This document shows positions 8,176 through 43,010 of a stretch of 43,010 bases of DNA, in pieces. Within the stretch, counting starts at the first letter, position 1; each line of letters opens with the position of its first letter. The stretch is taken from the IMG/VR virus record IMGVR_UViG_3300045988_038152, positions 1 to 43,010 of that record, one strand, 5' to 3'. The DNA is from a virus. Made by a program: the position numbers and the translations under genes. Under the pieces are notes generated by a model. It was not told the origin of the DNA, searched no databases, and saw only the letters and a program-made list of their open reading frames with translations.

Positions 8176-8176
8176 C

Positions 8177-15346: not shown

Positions 15347-15492
15347 ACCATTCCAGCAATGTTTTTCTTCGTGCGAAAAAATACCAGTGGAAAAACTTTT
15401 TTATTTGGCTCGTTGTTTTCACCTCCATCTGCCCTGCCATCGTCAGCACCGGTGGGGCGGTTCCGGTGGACGGTCATTTCTGACCGTTTCGG

Positions 15493-15771
15493 CTATTTAA
15501 GAAGTTCGCCTGTTATATCGAACAATTTGCAATATGGAGTAATGTTGATTTCTTCACCTGTGGCTTTTCGTTCTCTCAAAATCACGTCTGATACAGTCTG
15601 CTTATGGTCCGGTGTGACAAAGCCGTTTTCCTTTACATATTTTTGCATTTGTTTTAATGCTTCTTTTCTATTCTCATCGTAAAATATACAAATGTATTTA
15701 ACCTCTCCACAATGTCCAATGACTGGTTCGTAATCTTGCTGTTTTAACAGAACATCATAAATGACTGACAT
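15493..15771 (-). CDS. First early gene (92 aa), unknown function, no HTH recognised
   Basis: RBS agagaggaaaaaggatATG at 15771; immediately downstream of the early promoter. Confidence 0.5.
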   Translation of the reverse strand: MSVIYDVLLKQQDYEPVIGHCGEVKYICIFYDENRKEALKQMQKYVKENGFVTPDHKQTVSDVILRERKATGEEINITPYCKLFDITGELLK

Positions 15772-19416: not shown

Positions 19417-20589
19417 ATGGCAAAAAGAAAGAAATACCCGAAACTACCGAACAGCTTCGGCAGCATCCGCTATCTTGGCAAGGGGCGAAGAAACTGCTAC
19501 GCTGTCCATCCACCTGCAACGATTGACGCAACTGGAAAAGCAGTCCGTCCGCCTGCGATCTGCTACGTTGACGACTATCTAAAAGGATTTGCTGTCCTGA
19601 CAGCGTACAAAGCCGGAACATACAAACCGGGCATGGAAAAGGAGCTTGAGATTGCCCCTACAGCGGACGCAGATGCCCTTATAAGCCGTATTCTGTCAGA
19701 CTACAATACATTTAAGGGCGCAGAAGAAAAGTACCCGGAAACGCACAAATTGACGTTCTCAGAGGTATATGAACAATTTATGGCATGGAAGTTCCCTGAG
19801 GGAACGAAACTATCATACAGCTCAAGGAACGCATACCGGAACGGATATTCAAACTGTACAATGCTCCACAACCGCGTATTCGAGGATTTAAAAGCCCCTG
19901 ACATGCAAGAGGTATTAGATGCTTGTCCGCTCAAAAGAGAAAGCGTAATGATGATGCTGACGCTGTTTAAACAGATGTATAAGTATGCCATGTATGCTGA
20001 GATTGTCACGGAAAACAAAGCTTTATATGTTCGGAACAACGCACCTCACGACACGGAGCATGGAACCCCGTTTTCAGATGAAGAGCTTCAAATCCTTTGG
20101 CAGAACACCGATGATCCGGAAGTGCAGCTTATCCTCATTATGTGCTACTCTGGATGGAGGATTGGCGAAGTATCAAAACTTGCAATCAATCTCGAAGAAA
20201 GATATTATCAGGGCGGTATTAAAACAAAAGCCGGAAAAGATAGGATCGTGCCTATCCATCCGGCTGTGTATGATTTTGTTCGATCAAAAATGGAATCACA
20301 AGGAAAGCTTCTGATGTATACACAGACACATCACAGGGACAAGCTCTTCTATCCTACGCTCGAGCGATTGAATATAACTGGAAACCCGAAGCACACTCCG
20401 CACGATTGCCGACACACCTTTTCTACACTGTGCGAAAAGTACGGTGTCCGGGAGAACGACAGGAAGAGGATGTTGGGGCACTCATTCGGAAACGATGTCA
20501 CCAATGCTGTGTACGGTCACAGAACTCTGGAAGAACTCCGGAAAGAAATAGAGAAAATAAAAGTCCCATTTGTGACTAACTGTGACTAA
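19417..20589 (+). CDS. int: Tyrosine recombinase (phage integrase)
   Basis: RBS aaggaggaaatATG; WRIGEV, HDCRHTFST, MLGHS, VYGH catalytic-type motifs. Confidence 0.9.
   Translation: MAKRKKYPKLPNSFGSIRYLGKGRRNCYAVHPPATIDATGKAVRPPAICYVDDYLKGFAVLTAYKAGTYKPGMEKELEIAPTADADALISRILSDYNTFKGAEEKYPETHKLTFSEVYEQFMAWKFPEGTKLSYSSRNAYRNGYSNCTMLHNRVFEDLKAPDMQEVLDACPLKRESVMMMLTLFKQMYKYAMYAEIVTENKALYVRNNAPHDTEHGTPFSDEELQILWQNTDDPEVQLILIMCYSGWRIGEVSKLAINLEERYYQGGIKTKAGKDRIVPIHPAVYDFVRSKMESQGKLLMYTQTHHRDKLFYPTLERLNITGNPKHTPHDCRHTFSTLCEKYGVRENDRKRMLGHSFGNDVTNAVYGHRTLEELRKEIEKIKVPFVTNCD
20569..20589 (+). repeat. Tandem TGTGACTAA pair (candidate integrase arm-type sites, P arm)
   Basis: tttgtgactaac-tgtgactaa overlapping the last int codons and the stop. 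Confidence 0.6.
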
Positions 20590-20678
20590 CCGTTCCAGTT
20601 TTTATCGCTTTTAAACCATCTTAATCGTTCTATCAAAAGCCTGCAAAGCCTTGATTTTACTGGGTTTTTCGCATTTTA

Positions 20679-20742
20679 CAAGGGATTCTGAAAAAGCATT
20701 TTCTTTAATCTAATTTTAATGAAACTTTTCAAGAATCCTTTG
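20679..20742. promoter_or_regulatory. Candidate attP core: imperfect 16-bp inverted repeat around an AT-rich spacer
   Basis: caagggattctgaaaa (20679-20694) versus ttttcaagaatcctttg (20726-20742). Confidence 0.4.
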
Positions 20743-20765
20743 TTTATGCGGGTTTTCACCCTTGG

Positions 20766-20787
20766 TTTGTGACTAATTTGTGACTAA
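20766..20787 (+). repeat. Perfect tandem TTTGTGACTAA x2 (candidate arm-type sites, P' arm)
   Basis: Same 9-mer core and same orientation as at 20569-20589, 197 bp away. Confidence 0.6.
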
Positions 20788-20829
20788 CCACGTGAATCTG
20801 TATCTAGTTAAATCGTTGTAATTTAGCGT

Positions 20830-20865
20830 AAAAAAAGAGAGTCGGGTTTTTATGCCCAACTCTTT
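20830..20865. terminator. Intrinsic terminator closing the late (lysis) operon, probably bidirectional
   Basis: Stem 20836-20846 pairs with 20855-20865 (one mismatch); A7 on the plus strand gives T7 on the minus strand after the hairpin. Confidence 0.6.
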
Positions 20866-21037
20866 CTTTGACTGTCCGCTCGTACCGCTGCTAACAGCTC
20901 CCATCAGGAACATACAGCTCTTTCATTCATGCACGGCAAAATCAGTCTGCACTCTCAACTTGTGCGCAGCCACACAGGGCACTTTACATCATAAGTCCAA
21001 TCCCTGTGCGACTACTGATAGTATACCTCATCCTGCA

Positions 21038-22426
21038 TCAAAGTGCAATCAAATCTTTCCAGACAGTTTCATCACAAATTCCGTCCTGCTTCATGCCCCT
21101 GGATTTCTTGTAAGCATTCAGAGCGTAAATGGTGTTTGTTCCGGCTGAACGGTCAAGCTCAAGCTCCTTACCGTCTTTTCCTTTAAACTTCCGCGCTACA
21201 AGAATCTCCTGCAAGAGAAGAACGGAAAGTCCTGTGCTGCCTGCTACTACTGTTTCTGTTGTGAACATATATTTCTTTCCTCCTGTGGTTGGTGCATTAG
21301 TTGATGTTCCGTTTACGAGTTTCCAATCCGGTGTACAGAATTTTGTTCCCGGCATCTGACTGTTAAGATAGCTTTTTGCACAAACACCACCGCCGTTCGC
21401 AATAATGCCAGATGCACCGGAAGTATTACCCTCGATAGTATAAAAACGATCGCCAACAACCGCCGTGACTAATCCGGTGTGGGTAAATGTGCCATTGTGC
21501 TTAAATATCACGATATCGCCAACTTTCGGGTTAGCGTTAAGCGTAAATAATCCGCTCATGGTCGGACAGTACACATAAGGCCAGTGCTTTAAAAGTTTCT
21601 TAGCCGTCTCAAGTCCGAATGCTTTCATGAAGCACCAGCTCACGAAACAAGCGCACCAAGGTTGCCCCTGATAAGATGGTTTCACATCACGCCAGTATTT
21701 TGTGTAGTTCGCACTTCCTGAGTTCGCAGTCTTGCTGTCGAGCTGGCTGTTACTTTTCTTCTCAAGATAACCAATTTCATTCTTTGCAACGAGAATAACT
21801 TTTTCAATGGCTTTGTCCATTACAGAAACCTCCTCTTTATAATTTTTATAGAACACATCCATATCAACGTTACCGCTGATTCCGGATACTTTTCCTTTGC
21901 TGGAATACTGCCAGCCTACACCCACAGATGGTTTAAGTCGTGTCTGGACGGTTCCGTTGTCGCTTGCCGGATAACGAGCAATCCAACAATCGTACTTCCT
22001 GAGTGCATCAGTCAGGACGTTGTTGTACCAATCCATGTTGCAGTATATACCGACTTTGTATCCGGCTTTTTTCATTCTTGTCAGAAATGCGCCTGCAATG
22101 TTTTCGACTGCCTGCTTGCCGAGCATCCGTTGATTAGGCCACTCAAGGTCATAGAACACCGGAAAGTCCAGTCCACGTCCGTTCAGTGCGGCAATCACAT
22201 CTTCCGCTTCGTCAATAGCCCGTGCCGGTGTCAGAGCATATGAATACTTATATCCACCGACAAGGATTCCGTTGCTCTTACATCCCTTGTAGTTGTACTC
22301 AAAGGAACTGTCAATGCCGGCCCTCTGGTGTACTCTCAGGATTGCGAATTTAATACCGGATTTAGCAACTTTCGCCCAGTCTGGTTTTCCCTGATTAGAT
22401 GATACGTCAATTCCCTTTAATTCCAT
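21038..22426 (-). CDS. Three-domain endolysin: GH25 muramidase, CHAP/NlpC-type peptidase, PG-binding domain
   Basis: GIDVSSNQGKPDWAKVAKSGIKFAILRV; GQPWCACFVSWCF...THTGLV; C-terminal LQEIL...DGICDETVWKDLI. Confidence 0.8.
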   Translation of the reverse strand: MELKGIDVSSNQGKPDWAKVAKSGIKFAILRVHQRAGIDSSFEYNYKGCKSNGILVGGYKYSYALTPARAIDEAEDVIAALNGRGLDFPVFYDLEWPNQRMLGKQAVENIAGAFLTRMKKAGYKVGIYCNMDWYNNVLTDALRKYDCWIARYPASDNGTVQTRLKPSVGVGWQYSSKGKVSGISGNVDMDVFYKNYKEEVSVMDKAIEKVILVAKNEIGYLEKKSNSQLDSKTANSGSANYTKYWRDVKPSYQGQPWCACFVSWCFMKAFGLETAKKLLKHWPYVYCPTMSGLFTLNANPKVGDIVIFKHNGTFTHTGLVTAVVGDRFYTIEGNTSGASGIIANGGGVCAKSYLNSQMPGTKFCTPDWKLVNGTSTNAPTTGGKKYMFTTETVVAGSTGLSVLLLQEILVARKFKGKDGKELELDRSAGTNTIYALNAYKKSRGMKQDGICDETVWKDLIAL

Positions 22427-33199: not shown

Positions 33200-34369
33200 T
33201 TATGATTTTGCTGTTACGCTTGCACTTCCGGCATTCAGTGCTTTATATGTTCCATCACACTCAACCACTGTGATCTTCTGTCCGGTTGCTGCCTTAATGT
33301 CAGCTTTTCCGTCCCATGTAGTCCAGTTTCTGAGGTTCTGTCCATATCCAACAGTTACTGCACCTGCTGCAACTTTGTATTTATATACGTTGTTGGCATT
33401 TTCTTTAGCTGGATTTACAGTGATTTTTGTATCACCGCTTGCTGTTCCAGCCACGGAATTTACTGTCAGAGTGCCAAGGGTTGGTGTTTCGTCGATGGTG
33501 ATTACTGCGATTGCATCAATGTACTCCGCAAAAAGAGTAAGTCCCATTACTGCAAACGCTTCAGATACTGCGGTGAGGTAGTTGCCCTGGGTGTGGAATC
33601 CGATCAGGTTTGTCTCACCAGATACAGTATATACAAGTCCTGCCCTCGCAAAGTCAGATTCGTTCGGGTCAACATAGTAAAGCACGATGTTCTCAACAGG
33701 GGTAGCAATAACCTGTCCTCTTGGAATCTCGCTGTCAGATAACAGGAAGATAGTATTGAAGCCCATGAAATCTTTCATATACTGGAAGCCGAACTGGTTC
33801 TGAATAGTAATCTCAGCTGCTCCAAGGTATTCATATACGTCCAGAATATTGACAAATCCAACAACACCAGTCGCATTTCTGTGCATCTGCTTGAATTTAT
33901 TCTCAACACGGCCTTTAGCCATTGCCAGAGCCATCTGGAATGTGGTTTCTGTGGAAGTAAGTGTACCGGTTTTCAGATAGTCATAGAATCTGCCGGTAAC
34001 ATCAGTCTGAAGCTGGAAAAGGAACTCATCGTCAGTCATCTGAACAGCGTTCTCGTAACCGTGATCCTTGATTGCTTCGATAGATACAGCCTTTGCGTAC
34101 TTTTCGATAGTCATTTCCGCATACTTCTTTTCTTTTACAACGAATTTGCTGTAAGGGATTTCCTCACCCTCACCAACAAGTCCGCTCTGTAAAGTACCCT
34201 CTGCGTACTTAGAATTCAGTACAGCACCCGGCTGCTTTTTGATAGGTCTCATGATACCTAGAATGTCACGTAAGTGCTGCCAATTTCTTTCGAACCTGGT
34301 TACAAAGTCAATCTCACGTGCTGTGACCTGGATATCGTTAGTCATGATAAGATTAGTTTTTGCTGGCAT
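33200..34369 (-). CDS. Major capsid protein with C-terminal Ig-like domain
   Basis: 389 aa after the scaffold; C-terminal ~90 aa is beta-rich: TLTVNSVAGTASGDTKITV...KITVVECDGTYKALNAGSASVTAKS. Confidence 0.75.
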   Translation of the reverse strand: MPAKTNLIMTNDIQVTAREIDFVTRFERNWQHLRDILGIMRPIKKQPGAVLNSKYAEGTLQSGLVGEGEEIPYSKFVVKEKKYAEMTIEKYAKAVSIEAIKDHGYENAVQMTDDEFLFQLQTDVTGRFYDYLKTGTLTSTETTFQMALAMAKGRVENKFKQMHRNATGVVGFVNILDVYEYLGAAEITIQNQFGFQYMKDFMGFNTIFLLSDSEIPRGQVIATPVENIVLYYVDPNESDFARAGLVYTVSGETNLIGFHTQGNYLTAVSEAFAVMGLTLFAEYIDAIAVITIDETPTLGTLTVNSVAGTASGDTKITVNPAKENANNVYKYKVAAGAVTVGYGQNLRNWTTWDGKADIKAATGQKITVVECDGTYKALNAGSASVTAKS

Positions 34370-34446: not shown

Positions 34447-35079
34447 TCACTGGAATAACTGGATATTCTGAGCAATTGCAGCCTGTCTCTCGGACGGGTC
34501 TTTGATTGCTTCAATATCTTTCTTCGTCATACTTCCCGGTGTCTGCTGCTGTCCAACGTGAGTGGTAAATCTTGCCTGATTCTGCTGAGCCTGCTGCTGA
34601 GATTCGTCCACAAAAGCGGATGCGTCAGACTGCTTCATCTGTTCAATCAGGTCATTTAATCCAAGGATTTTACCGTCTTTCAGCTTGAGACCCGCTTCCT
34701 TGATGTCTGCCATAACCGATTTCTTTGCAGCTTCACTGGAAAATTTAACATCATCGAGTGCTGCTTTCAGAGCATCTGAGAAATCACGGTCATAGATCTT
34801 CGCATTGAATTCTTTCTCTGCATCCTCAGCTTTTTTCTTCCATCCAGCAAGTTCTGTCTGAATGTTCGCCGGGTCGATGCCGTCAAAACCTTTCAGGGTT
34901 TCCTCTGCTGCCTCAGCACGTTCTTTCCAGTTGTCTCTCTCTCCCTCGACTTTCGACAGGGTTTTTGCTACTTCTTTAGCATTCTTATAATGCTCAGAGA
35001 GTGCCTTTTTAACATCTGCCTGTTTGTCCTCTGGGATTTCAATTCCAAATGATTTAAGTGTGTCAATAAGCTTCTGCAT
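34447..35079 (-). CDS. Scaffolding protein (start at internal ATG 35079)
   Basis: RBS caggaggatatatATG; helical, charged, 210 aa. The longer track ORF would run into the tRNA. Confidence 0.7.
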   Translation of the reverse strand: MQKLIDTLKSFGIEIPEDKQADVKKALSEHYKNAKEVAKTLSKVEGERDNWKERAEAAEETLKGFDGIDPANIQTELAGWKKKAEDAEKEFNAKIYDRDFSDALKAALDDVKFSSEAAKKSVMADIKEAGLKLKDGKILGLNDLIEQMKQSDASAFVDESQQQAQQNQARFTTHVGQQQTPGSMTKKDIEAIKDPSERQAAIAQNIQLFQ

Positions 35080-35157
35080 ATATATCCTCCTGGTCGTGTT
35101 TATTGACCTGCCGCCGCAGGTAAGTGGATTAAGCCAGTTAGACCACTGGCAAGGTAA

Positions 35158-35229
35158 TTGCAGGAGACGGATTTGAACCGCCGTTCTCAAGGGCATGAAC
35201 CTTGTGAGATTCCGCTTCTCTATCCTGCC
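35158..35229 (-). tRNA. tRNA with anticodon CAU (Met / Ile2 / initiator-like; identity unresolved)
   Basis: Cloverleaf GGCAGGA-TA-GAGA-AGCGGAA-TCTC-A-CAAGG-TTCATGC-CCTTG-AGAAC-GGCGG-TTCAAAT-CCGTC-TCCTGCA-A. U8, A14, G18G19, G15:C48, T54-A58 and G53:C61 are present; no encoded CCA. Confidence 0.8.
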
Positions 35230-35460
35230 CTTAACCCGGATTCCCGGGTTAGCAAGGTGTTTAACGTGTCATGCCTGCCACGAGTTGTTTCGGGCATCTG
35301 TCCGCCCATTTACCTTTTACAAGGAGGTGCGTACTGTCTATGCGATCATATAGACAGTAATGATACGTGTCGGAAATTGCATCCGCTTTTCAACCTCATG
35401 CGTCTTGTGTTAGCTAAACACTGCATTTTCTATTAAGGACACGTACCCGTGAAAGGAGGA
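35230..35460 (-). ncRNA. Candidate structured RNA / tRNA leader (class unknown)
   Basis: 10-bp long-range helix 35438-35447 with 35362-35371; perfect 10-bp hairpin 35332-35359; 7-bp hairpin 35233-35250; no credible ORF on the minus strand. Confidence 0.35.
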
Positions 35461-35570
35461 ATCAATGAAAAAAATGTCTATGTCAAGTGGCGTCAACCAC
35501 TTACGAATCTTCCCTATGAATATATTTTACCACAGACTCTCCAAAAAGTTGTGGTACATGTTTTGGCTAA

Positions 35571-36128
35571 TTAGAGCATATCACGAAGCTTTTCCACGTA
35601 TCTTTTAACAAGATCACGTTCCTCCCGGCACTCCGCATCCTTGGACATATCGCTCATTTCTGTTGTGAGTTCGTCAAGGTGTTCTTCCAGAGCGGCAAGC
35701 ATCTTTCTCTTACAATCCTCAGATTTGCCGGAACGATAACTCTGTTTCTGCATCATGTAGTCATCGTAAGCATCCCGTCCGTCAGAACGGCTGTAGTGTC
35801 CTCTAACATAATGCTCGCCGCGTCTGGCATAAGAACTGCCCCGGTCGTAATCTGGCATCATTCTGCCATCATTTGAGCTGTATCTCCCCATGCTATCGCG
35901 CTTTCTTCCGCGTTCACTGTAATCGTCATTATATTCACCGCCACGCATCTCATTAAGGACAGTGTTATAGTACTCCACTTTTTTGTCCCAGTAATACGTA
36001 TTCTTGATATCTTTGTACATATCAATCAGCTTGTATGTCATTTCCAGATTTCCAGTGGTCAGTCCACTGTCAGCAATTTTGGACAGTTCATCTTCGATTC
36101 TTGCACATAAGTCTTTAATATCTCTCAT
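35571..36128 (-). CDS. 185-aa protein with helical ends and an R/S/D/Y/G-rich disordered centre
   Basis: RBS ggaggtgtgattATG; GRKRDSMGRYSSNDGRMMPDYDRGSSYARRGEHYVRGHYSRSDGRDAYDDY. Confidence 0.6.
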   Translation of the reverse strand: MRDIKDLCARIEDELSKIADSGLTTGNLEMTYKLIDMYKDIKNTYYWDKKVEYYNTVLNEMRGGEYNDDYSERGRKRDSMGRYSSNDGRMMPDYDRGSSYARRGEHYVRGHYSRSDGRDAYDDYMMQKQSYRSGKSEDCKRKMLAALEEHLDELTTEMSDMSKDAECREERDLVKRYVEKLRDML

Positions 36129-36139
36129 AATCACACCTC

Positions 36140-36562
36140 CTACGCTTCTCTAGTCACGACAATGTTTGCGTTTGCAACAGAAACAGCCTGGTCGCTTGTG
36201 TTTTCCACTGCAATATTAACGCAACATCCACGAGGTACATCAATATAAATGCCAGAGGACACATTGTTGTACTGGTCTACTGCTGCCGGCGTGGAAATCA
36301 TCTGAGAAGAAAGAACCGGCTCGCCAGAGATTGCAATAGCTAGAGAAATAGCCCCGACAGTACCGCCTGTTGGAATCGCGATATTACCGGAAAAATCCAC
36401 GAAAAATCTCGCTTTACACTGGTTAGTAAGTCCTCTTAGCGTAATAATTCCGCTTCCCTCTCTGTGCTGAATACAGTTAGAACCTTTAACTGCTGTGTTT
36501 GAAAATGCTACGTTTCCATTTGCTGCTACAGTCTGAGCAGCTATACTTGTAAATTCTGCCAT
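36140..36562 (-). CDS. 140-aa beta-rich protein resembling the BclA C-terminal (C1q/TNF-like) domain, without a collagen region
   Basis: ANGNVAFSNTAVKGS..GSGIITLRG...ARFFVDFSGNIAIP...ISLAIAISGEPVLSS...NANIVVTRE pattern. Confidence 0.45.
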   Translation of the reverse strand: MAEFTSIAAQTVAANGNVAFSNTAVKGSNCIQHREGSGIITLRGLTNQCKARFFVDFSGNIAIPTGGTVGAISLAIAISGEPVLSSQMISTPAAVDQYNNVSSGIYIDVPRGCCVNIAVENTSDQAVSVANANIVVTREA

Positions 36563-36584
36563 AATTTTACTCCTTTCATATCAC

Positions 36585-36608
36585 AAAAGGACAGGTATCA
36601 GCCTGCCC
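36585..36608 (-). terminator. Terminator-like hairpin after the HNH gene
   Basis: On the minus strand, GGGCAGG-ctgata-CCTGTCC then TTTT. Confidence 0.45.
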
Positions 36609-36655
36609 CTCTGTGTAATACGGCATAAGCCGACATAATCATAAAGATTAAGATA

Positions 36656-37702
36656 CTACTTTATTTTCTTTTCTCTTATACTCTGCAAATTAGTATTGTA
36701 ATGGTCTTTTAAAAATTGATCGAATTGCTCTGGCGTATTGTCTTGTTTTCCGTATTCGGAATGAAATTGGTTGTGTATTTTCCTTAACATGGGGATACCT
36801 TCTTGACTATCATTAATTCTTTTTAATTCGTCTTTTAGAATATAAAAGTCATCTTGATTATCATAATCCGATAATTTTTCAAGTACAGGTATTCCTGTTT
36901 CCATGCTTGCCTTTTTAACCAATTTGTTGAACGAATACAAATGGTGGACAGACAACCTTTCAGCATTCTTTCCCGTAATAGCGCACACATTCCCATAGCT
37001 TTTCTTTATCTCTTTTTTCCATGGGTTAGACACATCTCTCAGTAAATCCGCAACATTACACCTTCCGTCTTTGTAATTCCAATTTCTTTTGTTTCTATTA
37101 TCAATAGCAGCGCATTTCGCACAACCAGATTCTTTTCTTAAAAAATAAAGAAATTTGATATTAACAAAGTGTCCTCTTTTACAAGTACATCTGAAAGGAG
37201 TCATGTTGTCTTTGTATTCTTTTTCGTCAAGAATCGAATATCCTTTTTTTGCAAGCTCTTTTTTTACAAAATCAATATCATATTTTGTTTTTTTTATTTT
37301 TAAACTTTTGTTTCCACATTTCGGACATCTGTCTTGCCCTGTACAGAATTTCGCATAGGATTTTTGAAAAATATTTCCGCATCTGCACTGTATCGTTAAT
37401 ACTGATTGATTGTTCTTATATTCTCCGGAGATATATTTGCATCCACTGGAATTTATATTTTGTATGACATCATCAAGATTATTTCTAAATTTTCTCGAAT
37501 TCCTTTCTCTTGAACAGTCAATGCACATAATTTCCCGTTCACGCAATTTATTGAAATTTCTCTCAAATGTCTTTCCGCAACCGCATCTTATTCGTAAAGG
37601 AGTTGAATTATTAACATACTTCTCGGAAAGTACTTCACATTTTCCATCGGTCTTGTTTTTAACAAACTCCTTTACGTATTCAATCGTCAATTTTTTTGGC
37701 AT
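36656..37702 (-). CDS. Free-standing HNH homing-endonuclease-like protein with three zinc-ribbon repeats
   Basis: RBS ggaggtgctttttATG; three (E/K)Y.(N/D)N...C.CG...C..C repeats; C-terminal CAITG..LSVHHLYSFN...IHNQFH. Confidence 0.7.
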   Translation of the reverse strand: MPKKLTIEYVKEFVKNKTDGKCEVLSEKYVNNSTPLRIRCGCGKTFERNFNKLREREIMCIDCSRERNSRKFRNNLDDVIQNINSSGCKYISGEYKNNQSVLTIQCRCGNIFQKSYAKFCTGQDRCPKCGNKSLKIKKTKYDIDFVKKELAKKGYSILDEKEYKDNMTPFRCTCKRGHFVNIKFLYFLRKESGCAKCAAIDNRNKRNWNYKDGRCNVADLLRDVSNPWKKEIKKSYGNVCAITGKNAERLSVHHLYSFNKLVKKASMETGIPVLEKLSDYDNQDDFYILKDELKRINDSQEGIPMLRKIHNQFHSEYGKQDNTPEQFDQFLKDHYNTNLQSIREKKIK

Positions 37703-37726
37703 AAAAAGCACCTCCTATTGTGCTTT

Positions 37727-37755
37727 ATTATACCTTATTTTAAGACCAAACTCAA
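37727..37755 (-). promoter_or_regulatory. Promoter TTGAGT-17-TATAAT dedicated to the HNH gene
   Basis: -35 at 37755-37750 and -10 at 37732-37727 on the minus strand. Confidence 0.5.
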
Positions 37756-37783
37756 TACTTTTTTATTGCGTGTTGCTATTTAA

Positions 37784-38560
37784 TTAGCAATTTCCGCAAT
37801 TACACCCATTACAGGTATACCCGTAAAGATTTGACGCAGGGAAAGACGGTACCGGTGTAGGTCTTATTGCGTCGATAATCTGCTGTGTCTGTGAAGCCAT
37901 TGCAGTTGTGAGAAGTGCACTCTGGCGATCCTGAGAAGCAGCACGTCTGAGATCATTGTTTTCAGCCTGCAGGTTGGAAATCTTTTCATTGCAAAGATAG
38001 TCTAAAACGGCTCTCGCGTTTGCATTCTGGTTATCAATGATATCTCTTGTATTGCTGTTCATGGTGTTCTGTAATGCACAGGTGTTCTGCGCCATATTGT
38101 AATTTACGCCCTGAATTGCTTCTCTAGTTTCACAGCAACAGTTCGCAAGCTGTGCCTGGAGCGCATTAGTGTTCTGCATATTCGCTACAGTATCGGCATT
38201 AATTGCCTGCTGGATTCCGAATCCGGTCTGCATGATGTTCGTGTTGATTCCGTTAAATCCGGTAAGCATACCGTTATTTACTGCATAGAATCCATCACAG
38301 AGACCGTTGTTGATTCCGTCAAGCTTGCTGATTACTGCGGAATTGTCAAATCCTCTCTGAATGTCTGCCTGAGTAGCTGCTGTGGCCGCATATCCACCAC
38401 CGTTGCCATTATTGCCCCAGCCGTTGTTTCCCCATCCAAAGAAAGCAAAAATGAATAAAACAATAATCCACCAGCTACCATCTCCGCCAAACATGCCATC
38501 GTTATTTCTACCGTTTCCAGTAGCAGCGGCAATATCTGCTAAGCTATAATTTCCATCCAT
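37784..38560 (-). CDS. 258-aa N/G/Q/C-rich membrane-anchored protein ending in CNGCNCGNC
   Basis: RBS aaaaggagattatattATG; GGDGSWWIIVLFIFAFFGWGNNGWGNNGNGGG (YjcZ-like); LANCCCETREA; C-terminus YGYTCNGCNCGNC. Confidence 0.6.
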   Translation of the reverse strand: MDGNYSLADIAAATGNGRNNDGMFGGDGSWWIIVLFIFAFFGWGNNGWGNNGNGGGYAATAATQADIQRGFDNSAVISKLDGINNGLCDGFYAVNNGMLTGFNGINTNIMQTGFGIQQAINADTVANMQNTNALQAQLANCCCETREAIQGVNYNMAQNTCALQNTMNSNTRDIIDNQNANARAVLDYLCNEKISNLQAENNDLRRAASQDRQSALLTTAMASQTQQIIDAIRPTPVPSFPASNLYGYTCNGCNCGNC

Positions 38561-38612
38561 AATATAATCTCCTTTTTGTATATTTACATCAATCTGGCCA
38601 GATTGTAATGTA

Positions 38613-38834
38613 CTATTTCATTCCTTTCAACATGTGTTGGAATTGTCCTGCCATCTGCTGAACCTGATTAAGTTGCTGTTGGGAAATCTTTCCAGACTGT
38701 AGCATTTTCTCAACTTCTGCTTTTGGGTCTCCCTTAAAATTCTGCTTAAACTGTATAAACTGCTGTATCATCTGCATTGGCCCGTTTCCCTGTGGCATCC
38801 CACCACCGAGGGTATTGAATAATGGATTACTCAT
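38613..38834 (-). CDS. 73-aa Q-rich protein
   Basis: ATG overlaps the upstream stop; GPMQMIQQFIQFKQNFKGDPKAEVEKMLQSGKISQQQLNQVQQMAGQFQHML. Confidence 0.55.
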   Translation of the reverse strand: MSNPLFNTLGGGMPQGNGPMQMIQQFIQFKQNFKGDPKAEVEKMLQSGKISQQQLNQVQQMAGQFQHMLKGMK

Positions 38835-39297
38835 CTGCGTTTCCTCCCTTGACTGCTGATTCCTGCACGGTATTAGCTCTAACAGGTTCAGAAAAAGAAT
38901 TTAATCGGTTTATGATAGCTTCGTATTTACCCTTTAAATCGTCGTATTCCTGTCTGGTGACGTATTTACTGTCCATGTTCTGAACGGGCTGTTTAGGCGG
39001 CATCTGAGAGCCTACCTCGTGATACTCAAACGTTCGCAATGGCTGTGGCATACCGGAAACGTCTGTGGATTTTATAAAGAATTTTTCTGATTCTGAATCC
39101 ATTAGTAAAACACTTGTCCCGGGTGCTACCAGATAGGATTTTGCGCCGACTTCACCGGATACCCACAGGATACCATTGCTATTCTGTTGGGGTTGCTGTA
39201 CTGGTTGAGCTGGTATCTGGACAGGTTGTTGCTGAAATTGGTTCATCTGTCCCGGAACACCAAAACTATATTGATAAGGATTGTTATATAATGCCAT
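38827..39297 (-). CDS. 156-aa protein with Q/P-rich N-terminus and a small beta domain
   Basis: RBS gaaaggtggtgtataagATG; QMNQFQQQPVQIPAQPVQQPQQ then GILWVSGEVGAKSYLVAPGTSVLLMDSESEKFFIKSTDVSGMP. Confidence 0.55.
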   Translation of the reverse strand: MALYNNPYQYSFGVPGQMNQFQQQPVQIPAQPVQQPQQNSNGILWVSGEVGAKSYLVAPGTSVLLMDSESEKFFIKSTDVSGMPQPLRTFEYHEVGSQMPPKQPVQNMDSKYVTRQEYDDLKGKYEAIINRLNSFSEPVRANTVQESAVKGGNADE

Positions 39298-39331
39298 CTT
39301 ATACACCACCTTTCTGGTTATATTCTAAAAT

Positions 39332-39361
39332 AAAAAAAGAGCCTTAGACAGTTCGTCTAAG
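39332..39361 (-). terminator. Intrinsic terminator inside the late region
   Basis: On the minus strand, CTTAGAC-gaact-GTCTAAG followed by gcTCTTTTTTT. Confidence 0.7.
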
Positions 39362-39385
39362 ACCCATATAAGTATCTGAAAAGTA

Positions 39386-39592
39386 TCAGCACACTTTGAT
39401 TATTTTATTATTTACCCGGCGGCTTAATCGTTTCGCCGTGGATATGCTCACATTCATCTGTTCAGCGCAGTATTCAAGAGTGCGTTCCTGACATCTCAGC
39501 CGAAACAGCTTTTCTTCGTCCGGTGTAAAATTACACTCTGTCAAGAACCTGTCTATATCTTTCTTAGTGAACACATATAACTTCATGAGCAT
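39386..39592 (-). CDS. Sigma-70 region-4-like stand-alone HTH protein (66-68 aa)
   Basis: FTPDEEKLFRLRCQERTLEYCAEQMNVSISTAKRLSRRVNNKI. Confidence 0.55.
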   Translation of the reverse strand: MLMKLYVFTKKDIDRFLTECNFTPDEEKLFRLRCQERTLEYCAEQMNVSISTAKRLSRRVNNKIIKVC

Positions 39593-39606: not shown

Positions 39607-39912
39607 CTAACGTTGATTCTGCGCAAGATAATTTGTAAGCTTCTGTTTTGTTTTTTTTAATTCCTCAACATTATTTCCACTGATCTGACTATCCAGCATG
39701 GTTGATAGCACTTCCAGAATCAATGAATCACGTTCCGCAATCCTCTGAAGACTCTCGTAATCTCGTTTATCATGTTCTTCTAGTGTCTCAACTCGTTTGT
39801 TGAGTCGAAATGCCGGAGTAATCCACTTAAAAATTACGGCTGCCGCCCCTCCAACAATGGACACCCCTCCGCAGATAGAGAGGAAAATCTGTACAAATTC
39901 TGATATGCTCAT
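39607..39912 (-). CDS. N-terminally membrane-anchored coiled-coil protein (BhlA/holin-like or anti-sigma-like; unresolved)
   Basis: TM FVQIFLSICGGVSIVGGAAAVIF followed by a charged helical tail. Confidence 0.45.
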   Translation of the reverse strand: MSISEFVQIFLSICGGVSIVGGAAAVIFKWITPAFRLNKRVETLEEHDKRDYESLQRIAERDSLILEVLSTMLDSQISGNNVEELKKTKQKLTNYLAQNQR

Positions 39913-40298
39913 TTATTCTCCTTTTCCCAGTAATATACCGGGATCTCATTACCGCTATCCCATGTATCGAAATATTTGCCCTCTTGTACCGTCACCACAT
40001 GACCATCTATGCAGAGAATGTACGTGTCTGTCGGATGGTCTGTGCAAAAGTCGTTGACTGTATAGATATATCGTTCTGACTGTTCAATCAGTTTGCGTCT
40101 GTATCCATGCTTGTAGAGATACGCTCCCCAGACATAATTTGCACTTGGCATATCTGACAGAGAACACGCTTGTACCATTAGCCCGGCGAACACCGTTTCC
40201 CAGTCCTGCCCGGTTGCTTTGCATATTGCTCGGACAACGCAATCTCCTGTTCTCTTATCCTTAACAGGATTCGGATTGAAATATTCCCATCTATCCAT
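39909..40298 (-). CDS. Papain-like cysteine peptidase candidate (129 aa)
   Basis: Ordered Cys/His/Asp: TGDCVVRAI ... IDGHVVTV ... DTWDSG; translationally coupled (TGATG) to the head-morphogenesis gene. Confidence 0.45.
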   Translation of the reverse strand: MDRWEYFNPNPVKDKRTGDCVVRAICKATGQDWETVFAGLMVQACSLSDMPSANYVWGAYLYKHGYRRKLIEQSERYIYTVNDFCTDHPTDTYILCIDGHVVTVQEGKYFDTWDSGNEIPVYYWEKENK

Positions 40299-41566
40299 CA
40301 GTCAATCCCCTTTGCTGTTTTATACCGTTTTGCCGCTCCTCTGGCTTTTGCGGCATTCTGGCGGTTCCACTTAGCAATCATAAGGCGGTCTTGTAGTTCC
40401 CTCAGGTCGTTCTGCTTGCAGTAATCTTTATATGCAGCATTTTGCTTTTGGAGAAGATAAGACTTCCGGTCAAGGTCTTGTTGCAATGCGAATTTCGCCT
40501 TTTCGTTCGGTGCATTGTCAACTCCTGCTTGCAGTCCGAGAACTTCACGCTTCGTCTTGCGGATTCTCCGTTCGTAAGTACGTTGCCGCTGTTCTTTTTC
40601 GTACTGTTTGCCTTTGTTGGCTTTATCCTGCGCTGATAATTCTGCATAAGGATTTGGCATTCCTTCCACCCAAACTGAAAAATGATGTCTGCAATTTACT
40701 CCACATATTCCATCAGCTTCGCCATAATGACAATTTTCAATAAAATCTGGATATTGGCTTGCTTTTTGCCCCAACATTCTACGGTATTCTGGCGTATCTC
40801 GTTCCCGAAAAAACTCCGGCTTAATTTCTTTTAATTTTTCCCAGTCTATAGAAAATACCTGTCCTTGCCATACTTCGTGGCTTGGGCGGCTTCCTATATG
40901 TGCCGATGTCAACACTAAACCGTATCCCATTTCTTTCATTCTTGTCAACTGAATATCAGCACATGCCTGTGCCACACCGGTTCTAACAGAACGTGCTACC
41001 GCTGTTTCAATCGTGTCTTTTCTGCCAGATGGATATGTGACTGTCACGCCATCACTCAAAACGTTGTTAACTGCTTCTTTGATGGCTTGCGTATATCCAA
41101 CTGCCCCAGTCATCACATGGTTGTATGCAAGGTCACATTGCTCGATATAGAGCCTCTGAGCGGCACTTGCAGTTGTCCGTGTGAAGTTCTTCCACTCGCC
41201 CATGGTTGCAAGCATATTTCGTTCCATGAGCCTTATCATAGTTGGCGACTGTTCAAGCGGTACAGGGCTTAATCCTGCCGCCTTGTATACCTTATCATCG
41301 TAGTTCATTGCAGTGATTCCGGCATCCTCGAACGCTTCAAGAAGTTCCTGCTGTTCACGTTTCGTGTATCTGGATAATTCTGCCAGTATGTCCTCTAGCA
41401 GTTCGCCAGATTCCTGTAGTGTTCTGATTCTCCATGCGTCGGCATTGGTCAGAATATAGTCCTCACCTCTGCCGATTCTTGTCATCATCCGCGATACGAT
41501 CTCAGAGATGATATACTGATGCAATTCTTCTGCAATCTGCTCACTGCCCTCTGTGATTCGTCGCAA
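40298..41566 (-). CDS. Head-morphogenesis / minor capsid protein (SPP1 gp7 / Mu F-like)
   Basis: 422 aa; SAHIGSRPSHEVWQGQVFS, ICGVNCRHHF; TTG start with a distant RBS, so the start is uncertain. Confidence 0.65.
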   Translation of the reverse strand: MRRITEGSEQIAEELHQYIISEIVSRMMTRIGRGEDYILTNADAWRIRTLQESGELLEDILAELSRYTKREQQELLEAFEDAGITAMNYDDKVYKAAGLSPVPLEQSPTMIRLMERNMLATMGEWKNFTRTTASAAQRLYIEQCDLAYNHVMTGAVGYTQAIKEAVNNVLSDGVTVTYPSGRKDTIETAVARSVRTGVAQACADIQLTRMKEMGYGLVLTSAHIGSRPSHEVWQGQVFSIDWEKLKEIKPEFFRERDTPEYRRMLGQKASQYPDFIENCHYGEADGICGVNCRHHFSVWVEGMPNPYAELSAQDKANKGKQYEKEQRQRTYERRIRKTKREVLGLQAGVDNAPNEKAKFALQQDLDRKSYLLQKQNAAYKDYCKQNDLRELQDRLMIAKWNRQNAAKARGAAKRYKTAKGID

Positions 41567-41876: not shown

Positions 41877-43010
41877 TTAGTACACATGATAAATTCGTTT
41901 TATAAATGCTTCCACTTTAGGTGCTATGAAACACTTGTGTGCAGCATCCAAAGGATGAACTGTATTTGCAACGCCGTTCCCGTCATCATCTTTATAGTAT
42001 TTTTCCGCAAAAACATCGTCCCATGGACGTAAGTTACTATAATTGTATAAATCCAAAACGGGCAAATCATAATAATCAGCAATTTCCTTAAGAGCCTTGA
42101 TATATAAGTCACACTTTTTGCTTGCTTCGCTATCTTTCTGTGGCGATAAATACCCCCATTTAGTCGGCAAAATAACACCAGCCACAATATCGGGACAACG
42201 TGAAAATACTGAATCAAAAAAGGATTTCATACAACCATAAATAGTATCTGTGCTACTGTCACCGAATACACCTAACCTGCTTTCGATATATTCATAATCA
42301 TTAAATGATCCGAAAACAGTTAATAATTCTGTATCTTCTGGAATTGTTGAAACACGATTAACGAATCTATTTTCAGTTTTCATATATCCAGTGCCACCAA
42401 CTCCGCAATTAACAACTTTTAATCCTAATGATTCAGATACATAATCAACATAATTCTTAGTACCAGTTGTTTGACTAGCGAGCGTTGCGCTATCTGTCAA
42501 ACTATCACCATAAGCACACCATTTTACACCGAATAAATTAGCGTATTCCTTTGTCTTGATATCAAATATATCATAAGGAACATGTTTTTTCGGCAGTGTA
42601 TCACCTTTCACCAGCATTATATCCGTCATTCGTGCAGCTGGACCAAACAATGTCATATGATACCCGCCATCAGGTATAGTGAATGTTTTCGGTATACTAT
42701 CTATATATATATGTTGTATTCTTTTTATATCAGAATCATATATACCAATAGCGCCATACAGCCAATTAACTGTATAGGTTTCTCCAGTTTTGCATGGGAT
42801 AACATCATCAATAGCATTGAATCTATCTTGTGCAACTAGAGTTGGTGGATATCCAATGGAATTTGTATACCCGTATTCCTCTTTTACTTTAGAAATGTCA
42901 ATTAAATTCCAATATTTTAAGTTTTTTGTTTTATCTTCTAAATCTTCCTTTAGCGAATCAGTTTCTGCATTTACTTTCTTAAAATTGTCCCCTACCACTT
43001 TAGCATCTGC
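41877..43010 (-). CDS. SGNH/GDSL hydrolase fibre-like protein, C-terminal 377 codons (N-terminus at 189-73 across the junction; 416 aa in total)
   Basis: All four SGNH blocks: AYGDSLTDS, NCGVGGTGY, FGSFND, HPLDAAH; N-terminal ADAKVVGDNFKKV fibre-type motif. Confidence 0.8.
   Translation of the reverse strand, partial: ADAKVVGDNFKKVNAETDSLKEDLEDKTKNLKYWNLIDISKVKEEYGYTNSIGYPPTLVAQDRFNAIDDVIPCKTGETYTVNWLYGAIGIYDSDIKRIQHIYIDSIPKTFTIPDGGYHMTLFGPAARMTDIMLVKGDTLPKKHVPYDIFDIKTKEYANLFGVKWCAYGDSLTDSATLASQTTGTKNYVDYVSESLGLKVVNCGVGGTGYMKTENRFVNRVSTIPEDTELLTVFGSFNDYEYIESRLGVFGDSSTDTIYGCMKSFFDSVFSRCPDIVAGVILPTKWGYLSPQKDSEASKKCDLYIKALKEIADYYDLPVLDLYNYSNLRPWDDVFAEKYYKDDDGNGVANTVHPLDAAHKCFIAPKVEAFIKRIYHVY
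42939..43010. repeat. Terminal direct repeat, right copy (identical to 1-72)
   Basis: Same 72-mer as bases 1-72. Confidence 0.95.

What the first reader, a model, noticed from the sequence alone, without database searches (positions are those of the whole stretch)
35571..39361. Separately terminated and promoted cassette of low-complexity, coat-like proteins splits the head-morphogenesis module
The usual order portal, gp7-like protein, scaffold, capsid is interrupted between 40298 and 35079.
- A clean intrinsic terminator (39332-39361) is followed by six genes with no counterpart in standard virion modules.
- Three are low-complexity proteins: a 156-aa protein with a Q/P-rich N-terminus, a coupled 73-aa Q-rich protein, and a 258-aa N/G/C-rich membrane-anchored protein.
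- One is an independently promoted HNH endonuclease.
- The last two are a 140-aa BclA-C/C1q-like beta protein and a 185-aa protein with an RDSMGRYS / SYARRG type R/S/Y/D-rich core.
- The composition recalls Firmicutes spore coat and exosporium components: GerQ-type Q-rich N-termini, YjcZ-type G-rich hydrophobic segments, the BclA C-terminal domain, and Cys-rich tails.

I do not recognise this combination as a described phage system. Candidate roles are an extra capsid or cell-surface layer, spore-surface remodelling by a prophage, or Q/N-driven condensate or assembly formation.
Basis: partly seen in the sequence, partly recalled or inferred. Interest (0 to 1): 0.72.

Follow-up and report, generated by a model that had tools for sequence, protein, structure and literature searches.

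The report
Portable unknown-function phage gene module
The genes that interrupt this phage's head-assembly operon are a real, conserved, movable block of unknown function found in thousands of gut viruses, plus one recently inserted selfish endonuclease; the resemblance to spore coats is mostly compositional.

Summary

- **HNH gene:** it is a recent mobile insertion. It is absent from all 80 close relatives and has 31-34% GC against about 44% in the flanks.
- **The other five genes (A156, B73, C258, D140, E187):** they keep this order in diverse gut phages and prophages. The block moves as a unit. Only 8 of 45 well-flanked loci have it in the head module. Elsewhere it mostly follows the lysis genes at the prophage end.
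- **Two upstream genes that often travel with it:**
  - a 129-aa papain-like Cys-His-Asp peptidase candidate (39909-40298);
  - a small sigma-region-4-like HTH gene.
- **D140:**
- **C258:** a W/G-rich hydrophobic segment, one roughly 164-residue helix with an invariant CCC, and a Pro/Cys-rich tail. Homologues occur in crAss-like phages and in viruses attributed to Methanomassiliicoccales (archaea). That argues against a spore-specific role.

No profile or structure search assigns A, B, C or E to a known family. A separate promoter is not shown. The function is unresolved. My best guess is a peptidase-matured, membrane-anchored stalk-and-head assembly.

The parts
39909..40298 (-). g129: 129-aa candidate papain-like cysteine peptidase, a frequent sixth member of the module
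   Evidence: **Conserved residues.** D19, C20, R23, H100 and D111 are invariant in 32 diverse and in 83 database homologues.

**Structure.**
- AF2 model pLDDT 92.9. Cys sits at a helix N-terminus and His at a strand start.
- Best PDB fold match is Josephin-2, probability 0.75, TM 0.54, E 0.23.
- In BFVD, 18 phage proteins match at E<1e-3. One annotated 'Peptidase C39 domain' protein matches at E 1.5e-3.

**Position.** In the diverse loci it lies directly upstream of A or directly downstream of E. It also occurs alone in Bacillus and Geobacillus phages.
39607..39912 (-). g101: 101-aa protein with one N-terminal hydrophobic helix; lineage-restricted, membership in the module uncertain
   Evidence: KD19 maximum 2.21 at residues 9-27. 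No family hit. Found mainly in close relatives.
39386..39592 (-). g68: 68-aa sigma-70 region-4-like HTH protein, often found directly upstream of A in other phages
   Evidence: - Weak hits only: Sigma70_r4 E 0.006, TIGR02937 E 7e-5, phrog_1190 E 4e-6.
- A similar small ORF precedes A in many diverse loci.
- In some loci an HTH of this type is fused to an AgrB-like membrane domain.
39329..39365 (-). Conserved intrinsic terminator between g68 and A156
   Evidence: - 12-bp stem followed by a T-run.
- Conserved with compensatory changes and an invariant ACGAACTGT loop, in distant relatives too.
38827..39297 (-). A156: three parts in order, a P/Y/Q-rich disordered N-terminus, a roughly 50-aa beta domain, and a C-terminal coiled-coil helix with an acidic end
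   Evidence: - phrog_21718, E 8e-38.
- Family alignment A6.
- Profile searches return only coiled-coil noise and no GerQ match.
38613..38834 (-). B73: 73-aa M/Q/G-rich basic protein, overlapping A by 8 nt
   Evidence: - phrog_22984, E 6e-27.
- A counterpart of similar size and composition sits between A and C in Clostridium phage XP41-N3 and in most loci.
37784..38560 (-). C258: the most widespread component. It has a conserved N-terminal motif, a W/G-rich hydrophobic segment, a G/N-rich linker, one helix of about 164 residues with an invariant CCC, a PxPVPAY motif and a Cys-rich tail
   Evidence: - phrog_16490, E 3e-52.
- 2048 representative clusters at E<1e-3.
- AF2: helix 69-232, pLDDT >90 over about residues 140-240.
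- Nearly invariant residues: G22, G25, W30, C141-143, P238, P245.
- Only weak matches to influenza HA2, E 0.27. Foldseek against the PDB finds nothing.
- Clear homologues in crAss-like phages, a Bacteroides phage and viruses attributed to archaea.
36637..37783 (-). Mobile insertion carrying the HNH endonuclease gene (CDS 36656-37711); not part of the module
   Evidence: - PF13391 HNH_2 E 3.5e-6, above the curated cut-off; phrog_559 E 1e-26.
- Absent from all 80 close relatives, where C and D lie about 100 nt apart.
- GC 31-34% against 43-46% in the flanks.
- Other phages carry other endonucleases beside C.
36140..36562 (-). D140: BclA C-terminal-domain-like (C1q/TNF-like) beta protein without a collagen stalk
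   Evidence: - phrog_20016, E 6e-61.
- 11 of 35 family members hit PF18573 BclA_C, best E 5e-7.
- Profile against the PDB returns only four BclA chains, E 0.12-0.43.
- In other loci a Cys-rich beta protein (D') takes its place. No locus has both: 23 have D only, 11 have D' only.
35571..36134 (-). E187: helical N- and C-terminal parts flanking a variable R/S/Y/G/D-rich disordered core
   Evidence: phrog_28802, E 4e-63. Family alignment A8. No informative Pfam or PDB match.

Best explanation
**What it is.** The region is a conserved, portable accessory module of gut phages that has landed inside the head operon in this lineage.
- Core order: A (P/Y/Q-rich protein), B (M/Q-rich small protein), C (anchored coiled-coil, Cys-rich protein), D (BclA_C/C1q-like protein), E (R/S/Y-rich protein).
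- Usually present as well: a small peptidase (here g129, papain-like) and a small HTH gene upstream.
- The HNH gene between C and D is a separate homing-type insertion.

**Shown here.**
- The gene order is conserved.
- The block moves between genome positions.
- The HNH gene is absent from relatives.
- The terminator is real.
- The D family is homologous to BclA_C.
- g129 has a conserved catalytic-triad pattern and a papain-like fold.
- C has the long-helix architecture described above.

**Inferred mechanism (low confidence).**
- C is held in the cytoplasmic membrane by its W/G-rich segment. Its roughly 25-nm helix forms an oligomeric stalk.
- Its Pro/Cys-rich tip carries a D trimer, or a D' protein in other phages.
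- A, B and E, which are largely disordered, act as assembly or matrix partners.
- The peptidase processes one or more of these proteins.
- A, B, D and E show no strongly hydrophobic N-terminal segment. No signal-peptide predictor was run. On that basis assembly would take place in the cytoplasm, late in infection.
- The block usually follows the lysis genes. The C family spans monoderm, diderm and archaeal hosts. Both facts point to a process at the cell membrane, such as release, lysis control or exclusion, and not to capsid construction.
For: **The block is a unit.**
- The order A-B-C-D-E is kept in 80 close relatives.
- It is also kept in Dulem viruses 33, 35 and 39, Butyrivibrio phage Ceridwen, bajarodcaudo virus 5 and a Vescimonas prophage.
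- It is kept across 80 diverse genome loci.

**It is not tied to the head module.**
- Only 8 of 45 well-flanked loci have it near the minor capsid or scaffold genes.
- In the other loci, a large share of the nearest large upstream genes carry endolysin- or holin-type Pfam domains.

**Peptidase partner.**
- g129 is present in 22 of those 45 loci.
- A roughly 106-aa HExxH protein follows E in loci that lack g129. Five loci have it and none has both.
- HExxH-type genes also flank C in a crAss-like phage and a Bacteroides phage.

**Component architecture.**

**The C family is phage-specific and very broad.**
- 2048 representative clusters.
- One hit among 72,556 plasmid records, and that hit lies in a prophage.
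- Present in crAss-like phages, a Bacteroides phage and viruses attributed to archaea.

**HNH is a separate insertion.**
Against: **No functional data.** There is no evidence on expression, localisation or interaction. The stalk-and-head picture and the proteolysis step rest on predicted features only.

**The membrane anchor is uncertain.**
- The hydrophobic segment is short, about 14-18 residues, and has low model confidence.
- It could anchor to something other than a membrane.

**The peptidase link is loose.**
- g129 homologues occur without A-E in Bacillus and Geobacillus phages.
- 18 of the 45 well-flanked loci show neither peptidase.

**D140 evidence is indirect.** D140 itself gives no Pfam hit. 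The assignment is at family level, and its fold was not modelled.

**Counts are approximate.**
- They come from a crude ORF caller and home-made HMMs.
- The loci were selected for containing C. The counts are therefore conditional on C and are lower bounds.
- The HExxH model drifted onto an unrelated phage family on iteration.
Confidence: 0.5

Rival explanations
1. Virion fibre or decoration set. C would be a trimeric coiled-coil fibre fixed to the capsid by its N-terminus, as reovirus sigma-1 is. D would be its C1q-like distal knob. A, B and E would be assembly chaperones or linkers. The function would be adhesion in the gut.
For: - In this window and in 8 of 45 loci the block lies in the head module.
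- Depositors of crAss-like and Bacteroides phage genomes labelled C homologues 'outer capsid protein/viral fiber' or 'spike protein'.
- BclA_C/C1q-type domains typically cap extracellular fibres (established knowledge of BclA), and the D family is BclA_C-like.
- A, B, D and E lack strongly hydrophobic N-terminal segments, which would fit cytoplasmic assembly.
- All sources are gut or rumen samples.
Against: - The same block occurs in phage lineages whose major capsid and minor capsid proteins are not detectably related to those of this window, in crAss-like phages and in viruses attributed to archaea. Capsid-specific attachment is hard to reconcile with that.
- Most copies lie after the lysis genes at the prophage end, not among structural genes.
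- No match to any decoration, fibre or structural family in PHROGs or Pfam.
- The depositors' labels most likely reflect coiled-coil similarity only: the best HA2 match is E 0.27.
Confidence: 0.22
2. Packaged ejection or internal proteins. C and its partners would be loaded into the head and released with the DNA, with C inserting into the host membrane. The peptidase would process them during maturation or act in the newly infected cell.
For: - Here the block sits next to the gp7-like minor capsid protein.
- C has a fusion-peptide-like W/G-rich segment followed by a long helix.
- Small peptidases of the g129 type sit in early or anti-restriction regions of Bacillus phages.
- The cytoplasmic membrane is the one structure shared by all host groups.
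Against: - In long-tailed phages the tape-measure and tail-tip proteins are generally held to provide the membrane channel (established knowledge).
- The usual position after the lysis genes is atypical for head-internal proteins.
- A C1q-like trimer has no obvious role in ejection.
- There is no similarity to known ejection proteins.
Confidence: 0.1
3. Prophage-encoded remodelling of the spore coat or exosporium. Q-rich, Cys-rich, BclA-like and R/S/Y-rich proteins would be deposited on the host spore, under a GerE-like small regulator.
For: - The D family is homologous to the BclA C-terminal domain.
- The compositions resemble coat proteins.
- A small HTH gene lies upstream.
- Many hosts are Clostridia.
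- The block often lies at the prophage end, where conversion genes usually sit.
Against: - No profile match of A to GerQ, or of C to YjcZ or to any coat family.
- The whole block is present in Butyrivibrio phage Ceridwen, whose authors suggest it is virulent.
- C with all its motifs occurs in crAss-like and Bacteroides phages and in viruses attributed to Methanomassiliicoccales. Those hosts do not sporulate.
Confidence: 0.05
4. No functional unit. The genes would be unrelated hitch-hiking accessory genes that stay together only because of shared descent.
For: - All functions are unknown.
- The surrounding region is a hot spot for insertions: HNH genes, variable slots between g68 and A and between E and the scaffold gene, and AgrB-like genes.
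Against: - The order is kept down to 20-45% protein identity while the flanks change completely.
- D is replaced by D' at the same slot and the two never occur together.
- A and B overlap.
- The block sits in at least three different genome positions.
Confidence: 0.05

Closest known systems
BclA exosporium glycoprotein of Bacillus anthracis (C-terminal domain, Pfam PF18573)
   Same: The D140 family gives BclA_C hits in 11 of 35 members. BclA chains are the only PDB profile matches. D140 is about the size of that domain.
   Different: - No collagen-like repeats and no BclA N-terminal attachment region.
- D140 itself is below detection.
- It is encoded by phages, including phages of hosts that do not sporulate.
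- A separate alpha-helical protein (C) may supply the stalk. That is inference.
Phage spanins (Rz-type inner-membrane spanin, T1 gp11-type unimolecular spanin)
   Same: - N-terminal hydrophobic anchor, long coiled coil and a Pro- and Cys-containing C-terminus in C258.
- Frequent position just after holin and endolysin genes.
   Different: - Most hosts are monoderm Firmicutes and some are attributed to archaea.
- No lipobox partner was identified.
- No sequence or fold match.
- Four or five further conserved partner genes have no counterpart in spanin systems.
Class I viral fusion proteins (influenza HA2)
   Same: A W/G-rich hydrophobic peptide followed by a long helix. It gives weak profile matches to HA2, E 0.27 and above. 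The module includes a peptidase, and HA2-type proteins are activated by cleavage. The cleavage parallel is analogy only.
   Different: The matches are not significant. There is no C-terminal membrane anchor. No enveloped virion is expected for tailed phages.
Small papain-like peptidases (C39 bacteriocin-processing domain, Josephin deubiquitinases)
   Same: g129 has an invariant Cys-His-Asp pattern in the papain-like positions. Its best fold matches are Josephin-2 in the PDB and a C39-domain phage protein in BFVD.
   Different: - No Pfam or PDB sequence match.
- The PDB fold match is weak (E 0.23).
- Substrate and activity are untested.
Phage phi29 p16.7 (membrane anchor plus coiled coil, organises phage DNA at the membrane)
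   Same: An N-terminal membrane helix followed by a coiled coil in a phage-encoded protein. This comparison rests on my own knowledge of p16.7.
   Different: p16.7 is an early protein with a DNA-binding C-terminal domain. C258 has a Cys/Pro-rich tail and sits with late genes. No sequence similarity was found.

Membership tests
BclA_C / C1q-like domain (PF18573), for D140 | Significant match to the Pfam model | tested here: inconclusive
   D140 alone gives no hit at E<=1. 11 of 35 aligned family members do hit, best E 5e-7. Profile against the PDB returns only four BclA chains at E 0.12-0.43.
BclA_C / C1q-like domain (PF18573), for D140 | Trimeric jelly-roll fold | not tested
BclA exosporium protein (full architecture) | Collagen-like GXX repeat stalk and an N-terminal exosporium-attachment region | tested here: not met
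   D140 is 140 aa with no repeat region. The family lengths are 133-169 aa.
Papain-like cysteine peptidase (C39/Josephin-like), for g129 | Conserved catalytic Cys, His and Asp/Asn | tested here: met
   C20, H100 and D111 are invariant and D114 nearly so, in 32 and in 83 sequences.
Papain-like cysteine peptidase (C39/Josephin-like), for g129 | Papain-like fold with Cys at a helix N-terminus and His on a beta strand | tested here: inconclusive
   - Model pLDDT 92.9, with helix 20-29 and strand 100-105.
- PDB top hit Josephin-2: probability 0.75, TM 0.54, E 0.23.
- BFVD C39-domain protein at E 1.5e-3.
- No Pfam or PDB sequence hit.
HNH homing endonuclease, for the 351-aa ORF | HNH motif match and presence/absence polymorphism among close relatives | tested here: met
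   - PF13391 at 27.2 bits against a cut-off of 21.
- Absent from 80 of 80 relatives, with a clean junction at 36636.
- Low GC.
Spore coat GerQ / YjcZ families, for A156 and C258 | Profile match to the family models | tested here: not met
   No Pfam or NCBIfam hit for either protein. None of the 52 A-family members hits a GerQ model.
Head decoration or scaffolding proteins | Match to a structural family, and a fixed position in the head module | tested here: not met
   All PHROG matches are to families of unknown function. Only 8 of 45 loci are head-embedded.
Spanins, for C258 | N-terminal membrane anchor plus a periplasm-spanning coiled coil | tested here: inconclusive
   The predicted architecture fits. 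The topology is untested.
Spanins, for C258 | Outer-membrane lipoprotein partner or lipobox, and a diderm host | tested here: not met
   No lipobox is evident in the translated partner proteins. Most loci come from Lachnospiraceae, Oscillospiraceae and Bacilli.
Known anti-phage defence systems (PADLOC) | Match to any defence-system protein model | tested here: not met
   No family for any of nine proteins at E<=0.01.
Intrinsic (Rho-independent) terminator | GC-rich hairpin followed by a T-run, with the structure conserved | tested here: met
   Termination itself is not testable with these tools.

The most novel reading that the evidence does not exclude
The block would be a previously undescribed system of gut viruses, shared by phages of Firmicutes and Bacteroidota and by archaeal viruses. 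A dedicated small peptidase would mature a membrane-active protein (a W/G-rich peptide plus a 25-nm helix carrying a CCC motif). That protein, capped by a C1q-like trimer and embedded in low-complexity partners, would remodel or breach the host cytoplasmic membrane. This would be a lysis, release or exclusion device unrelated to holins and spanins.
Probability: 0.25. Interest if true: 0.8.

Novelty: categorically new. Interest (0 to 1): 0.62.

Why it matters
- **Scale.** The C258 family alone has more than 2000 representative clusters at 50% identity.
- **No curated family.** Pfam and NCBIfam have no model for A, B, C, E or g129.
- **What it would add.** A conserved multi-gene unit that moves between positions and morphotypes, and apparently between host domains, is probably an unrecognised step of phage biology in the gut. 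Defining it would annotate thousands of hypothetical genes.
- **Possible pay-off.** If the membrane reading is right, it could reveal a new route of release or exclusion in anaerobes, where lysis is poorly understood.
- **Practical points.**
  - The HNH gene should not be counted as part of the unit.
  - Spore-coat-like composition should not be read as homology.

Tried and rejected
- **Single-sequence family searches.** Pfam, NCBIfam and PADLOC gave nothing for A-E.
- **Profile searches against the PDB.**
  - A and E gave only coiled-coil or designed-helix noise.
  - C gave only weak HA2 and coiled-coil matches.
- **Foldseek of the C258 model against the PDB.** No match, as expected for one long helix.
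- **First two homologue searches.** They returned only relatives at 79% identity or more, which was too shallow. A search with a profile fixed this for g129.
- **Structure prediction with sequences taken from loci.** D140, A156 and E187 were therefore not modelled.
- **Genome scan with the 80-sequence alignment.** Failed. A 12-sequence alignment worked.
- **HExxH peptidase replacing g129.** Partly weakened. On iteration the model drifted onto an unrelated HExxH family near the connector genes. Only the 8 copies adjacent to the module count.
- **Double-glycine-like leader in C cleaved by g129.** Rejected. The N-terminal motif comes in at least two flavours that do not track the presence of g129 or the HExxH gene.
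- **AgrB hits upstream of A.** Rejected as evidence for quorum sensing. They are membrane domains fused to the HTH.
- **Literature searches.** Searches on BclA in phages, virion proteomics of Clostridium perfringens phages, the Bacteroides phage and RAGATH-21 found nothing relevant. The Ceridwen paper contains no mass-spectrometry data.

Full report
**1. What is in the window**

All genes in 33-43 kb are on the minus strand. In transcription order:

| Feature | Coordinates | Identification |
|---|---|---|
| 373-aa protein | 41877-42998 | PHROG matches of mixed annotation (virion structural, tail fiber, esterase/lipase) |
| Minor capsid protein 2 | 40298-41566 | PF06152, E 8e-77 |
| g129 | 39909-40298 | candidate peptidase (section 4) |
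| g101 | 39607-39912 | one hydrophobic helix |
| g68 | 39386-39592 | sigma-region-4-like HTH |
| Terminator | 39365-39339 | hairpin plus T-run |
| A156 | 38827-39297 | unknown function |
| B73 | 38613-38834 | unknown function |
| C258 | 37784-38560 | unknown function |
| HNH gene | 36656-37711 | homing-type endonuclease |
| D140 | 36140-36562 | BclA_C-like family |
| E187 | 35571-36134 | unknown function |
| Gap of about 490 nt | 35080-35570 | structured RNAs (section 8) |
| Scaffold gene | 34447-35079 | phrog_194 |
| Major capsid gene | 33200-34369 | named from its position and 82% identity to the gene annotated 'major capsid protein' in Dulem virus 35 |

- Portal and terminase lie at 441-3502. 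Endolysin and integrase lie at 19417-22426.
- The window therefore looks like a whole, circularly permuted temperate phage genome.

**2. The HNH gene is a separate, recent insertion**

- None of 80 close relatives from IMG/VR (C258 90-96% identical) has it. In them D follows C after about 100 nt.
- Homology resumes at window position 36636 in 79 relatives, 20 nt past the HNH stop. Nothing matches the HNH interior.
- Its GC content is 31-34% against 43-46% on both sides.
- Other phages carry other endonucleases in the same neighbourhood. Dulem virus 33 has one between B and C. Bacteroides phage C3_41T2LP has an I-HmuI-type gene just before its C homologue.

**3. The remaining five genes form a conserved unit that moves**

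Each gene has a PHROG family of unknown function. No Pfam or NCBIfam family matches any of them. The same order is found in several genome positions.

| Phage or prophage | Position of the block |
|---|---|
| Dulem virus 35 | same place as here |
| Dulem virus 33 | after the amidase, before the integrase |
| Butyrivibrio phage Ceridwen | after the endolysin |
| Bajarodcaudo virus 5 | after holin and endolysin, at the end of the operon |
| Dulem virus 39 | after an integrase gene |
| Vescimonas fastidiosa prophage | last block before host genes |

Clostridium phage XP41-N3 has A, B and C between an antirepressor and its recombination genes.

I then took 80 diverse genome loci found through the CCC motif of C. 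Most were labelled Lachnospiraceae, Oscillospiraceae, other Clostridia or Bacilli. I searched them with home-made iterative HMMs. Among the 45 loci with enough flanking sequence:

| Family | Loci of 45 |
|---|---|
| A | 41 |
| C | 39 |
| D | 23 |
| D' (a different Cys-rich beta protein in the same slot) | 11 |
| D and D' together | 0 |
| E | 26 |
| Minor capsid or scaffold gene nearby | 8 |

For 41 loci without a recognised minor capsid gene nearby, a large share of the nearest large upstream genes carry endolysin- or holin-type domains. These are Amidase_2, Amidase_3, GH25, M23, NlpC/P60, Glucosaminidase and peptidoglycan-binding domains.

These counts are lower bounds from a crude gene caller, and they are conditional on C being present.

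The proteins are not assigned to ordinary head families, and they are co-conserved as a block.

**4. Two upstream genes belong with the unit**

*g129*
- The family lies immediately before A or immediately after E in 22 of the 45 loci.
- D19, C20, R23, H100 and D111 are invariant.
- The AlphaFold model is confident (pLDDT 92.9). Cys sits at a helix start and His on a strand.
- The best PDB fold match is the papain-like deubiquitinase Josephin-2 (probability 0.75, TM 0.54, E 0.23).
- In the viral structure library it matches many uncharacterised phage proteins, plus one annotated C39-domain protein at E 1.5e-3.
- I read it as a small papain-like peptidase. Activity and substrate are unknown.
- It also occurs alone in early regions of Bacillus and Geobacillus phages, so the link to A-E is frequent but not obligatory.

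*HExxH alternative*
- In loci without g129, a roughly 106-aa HExxH protein often follows E. It gives weak SprT-like and M78 matches.
- HExxH-type genes also flank the C homologue in a crAss-like phage and a Bacteroides phage.
- This suggests, without proving, that a peptidase is a functional partner.

*Small HTH gene and terminator*
- An HTH gene like g68 precedes A in many loci.
- In some Bacilli-type loci it is fused to an AgrB-like membrane domain.
- Between g68 and A lies the terminator. Its stem varies with compensatory changes in 5 of 11 pairs. Its ACGAACTGT loop and an upstream GATACT motif are invariant even in distant relatives.
- Expression of A-E therefore needs read-through or some regulated event. 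No promoter is evident in the 30 nt before A.

**5. The proteins**

*C258.* This is the most widespread component: 2048 representative clusters at E<1e-3.
- The model shows a short N-terminal helix, a hydrophobic helix at 31-40, a disordered G/N-rich linker, then one helix from 69 to 232 with pLDDT above 90 over its second half.
- Nearly invariant positions: G22, G25, W30, C141-143, P238 and P245.
- Profile search of the PDB gives only weak matches to influenza HA2, covering its fusion peptide and first heptad region (E 0.27).
- That most likely explains the depositors' labels 'spike protein' and 'viral fiber'.

*A156.* It has a P/Y/Q-rich N-terminus, a small beta domain and a C-terminal coiled coil.

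*E187.* It has helical ends around a variable R/S/Y/G/D-rich core.

*A, B and E together.* None of the three matches GerQ, YjcZ or any other known family.

**6. Host range**

- The C homologue of crAss-like phage cr116_1 has every motif, down to a CNCGNSYNGCNC tail.
- Homologues occur in many crAss-like genomes, in cultured Bacteroides phage C3_41T2LP and in two viruses attributed to Methanomassiliicoccales.
- Among 72,556 plasmid records there is one hit, and it lies in a prophage.
- Ceridwen's authors suggest it is virulent.
- A spore-specific role is therefore unlikely.
- The function appears tied to the phage life cycle and to something common to monoderm, diderm and archaeal hosts.

**7. 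Interpretation**

*Firm*
- This is a portable accessory module.
- The HNH gene is not part of it.
- The terminator is real.
- The D family is BclA_C-like.
- g129 is a papain-fold candidate peptidase.

*Inferred, with low confidence.* The proteins form a membrane-anchored stalk (C) with a C1q-like head (D or D'). Disordered partners (A, B, E) and peptidase processing complete the assembly, which is built in the cytoplasm late in infection. It would act at the membrane in release, lysis control or exclusion.

*For a membrane role over a capsid role*
- The block moves between unrelated virion types and between genome positions.
- It usually follows the lysis genes.

*For the virion-fibre rival*
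- In this window the block lies in the head module.
- C1q-like heads typically cap fibres.
- A, B, D and E have no strongly hydrophobic N-terminal segment, and no signal-peptide predictor was run.

I cannot decide between these readings without proteomics.

**8. Seen in passing**

- The gap between E and the scaffold gene holds a RAGATH-21 RNA (35362-35447, 77.7 bits) and a tRNA-Met (35158-35229).
- A type II hammerhead ribozyme lies at 15428-15494.

Noticed in passing
window 35362-35447 (-): Rfam RAGATH-21 RNA, 77.7 bits against a gathering score of 70.3. It lies in the non-coding gap between E187 and the scaffold gene, just upstream of a tRNA.
   Followed up: no
window 35158-35229 (-): tRNA-Met (anticodon CAT), found by ARAGORN and by Rfam at 52.1 bits. 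It lies immediately upstream of the scaffold gene. The 249-aa ORF listed at 34447-35196 runs over it, so the real scaffold start is 35079.
   Followed up: partly
window 15428-15494 (-): Type II hammerhead ribozyme match, 39.1 bits against a gathering score of 37, in the early region.
   Followed up: no
window 39366-39385 (-) and the terminator loop near 39352: Two sequence elements are invariant from close relatives to distant ones (L104, L114, L120, L125), while the stem co-varies. They are a GATACT motif just upstream of the terminator hairpin and the hairpin loop ACGAACTGT. This may be a binding site or a regulated terminator, not a plain one.
   Followed up: partly
L136:8520-9092, L144:8550-9122, L122:8446-9021: In some Bacilli-type prophages the gene directly upstream of A encodes about 190 aa. 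It has an AgrB-like multi-pass membrane domain (PF04647, E 7e-6) fused to a sigma-region-4-like HTH. This looks like a membrane-tethered version of g68.
   Followed up: partly
Relatives L003-L082, between g68 and A and between E and the scaffold gene: Both slots vary in length and content among close relatives. They hold insertions of up to about 1.9 kb with different small ORFs. The borders of the module are therefore insertion hot spots.
   Followed up: partly
L083:5414-5761 and 7994-8389; L170:8770-9234: In a crAss-like phage and in Bacteroides phage C3_41T2LP the C homologue is flanked by small HExxH proteins, one annotated as a PolyVal metallopeptidase. It is followed by a Cys-containing beta protein and a protein with a beta domain plus coiled coil. 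These resemble D' and A.
   Followed up: partly
window 41877-42998 (-): A 373-aa protein lies between the portal gene (across the window ends) and the minor capsid gene. Its C-terminal 220 aa match PHROG families of mixed annotation: unknown function, virion structural protein, tail fiber protein and esterase/lipase. It is absent from the close relatives at this position.
   Followed up: no
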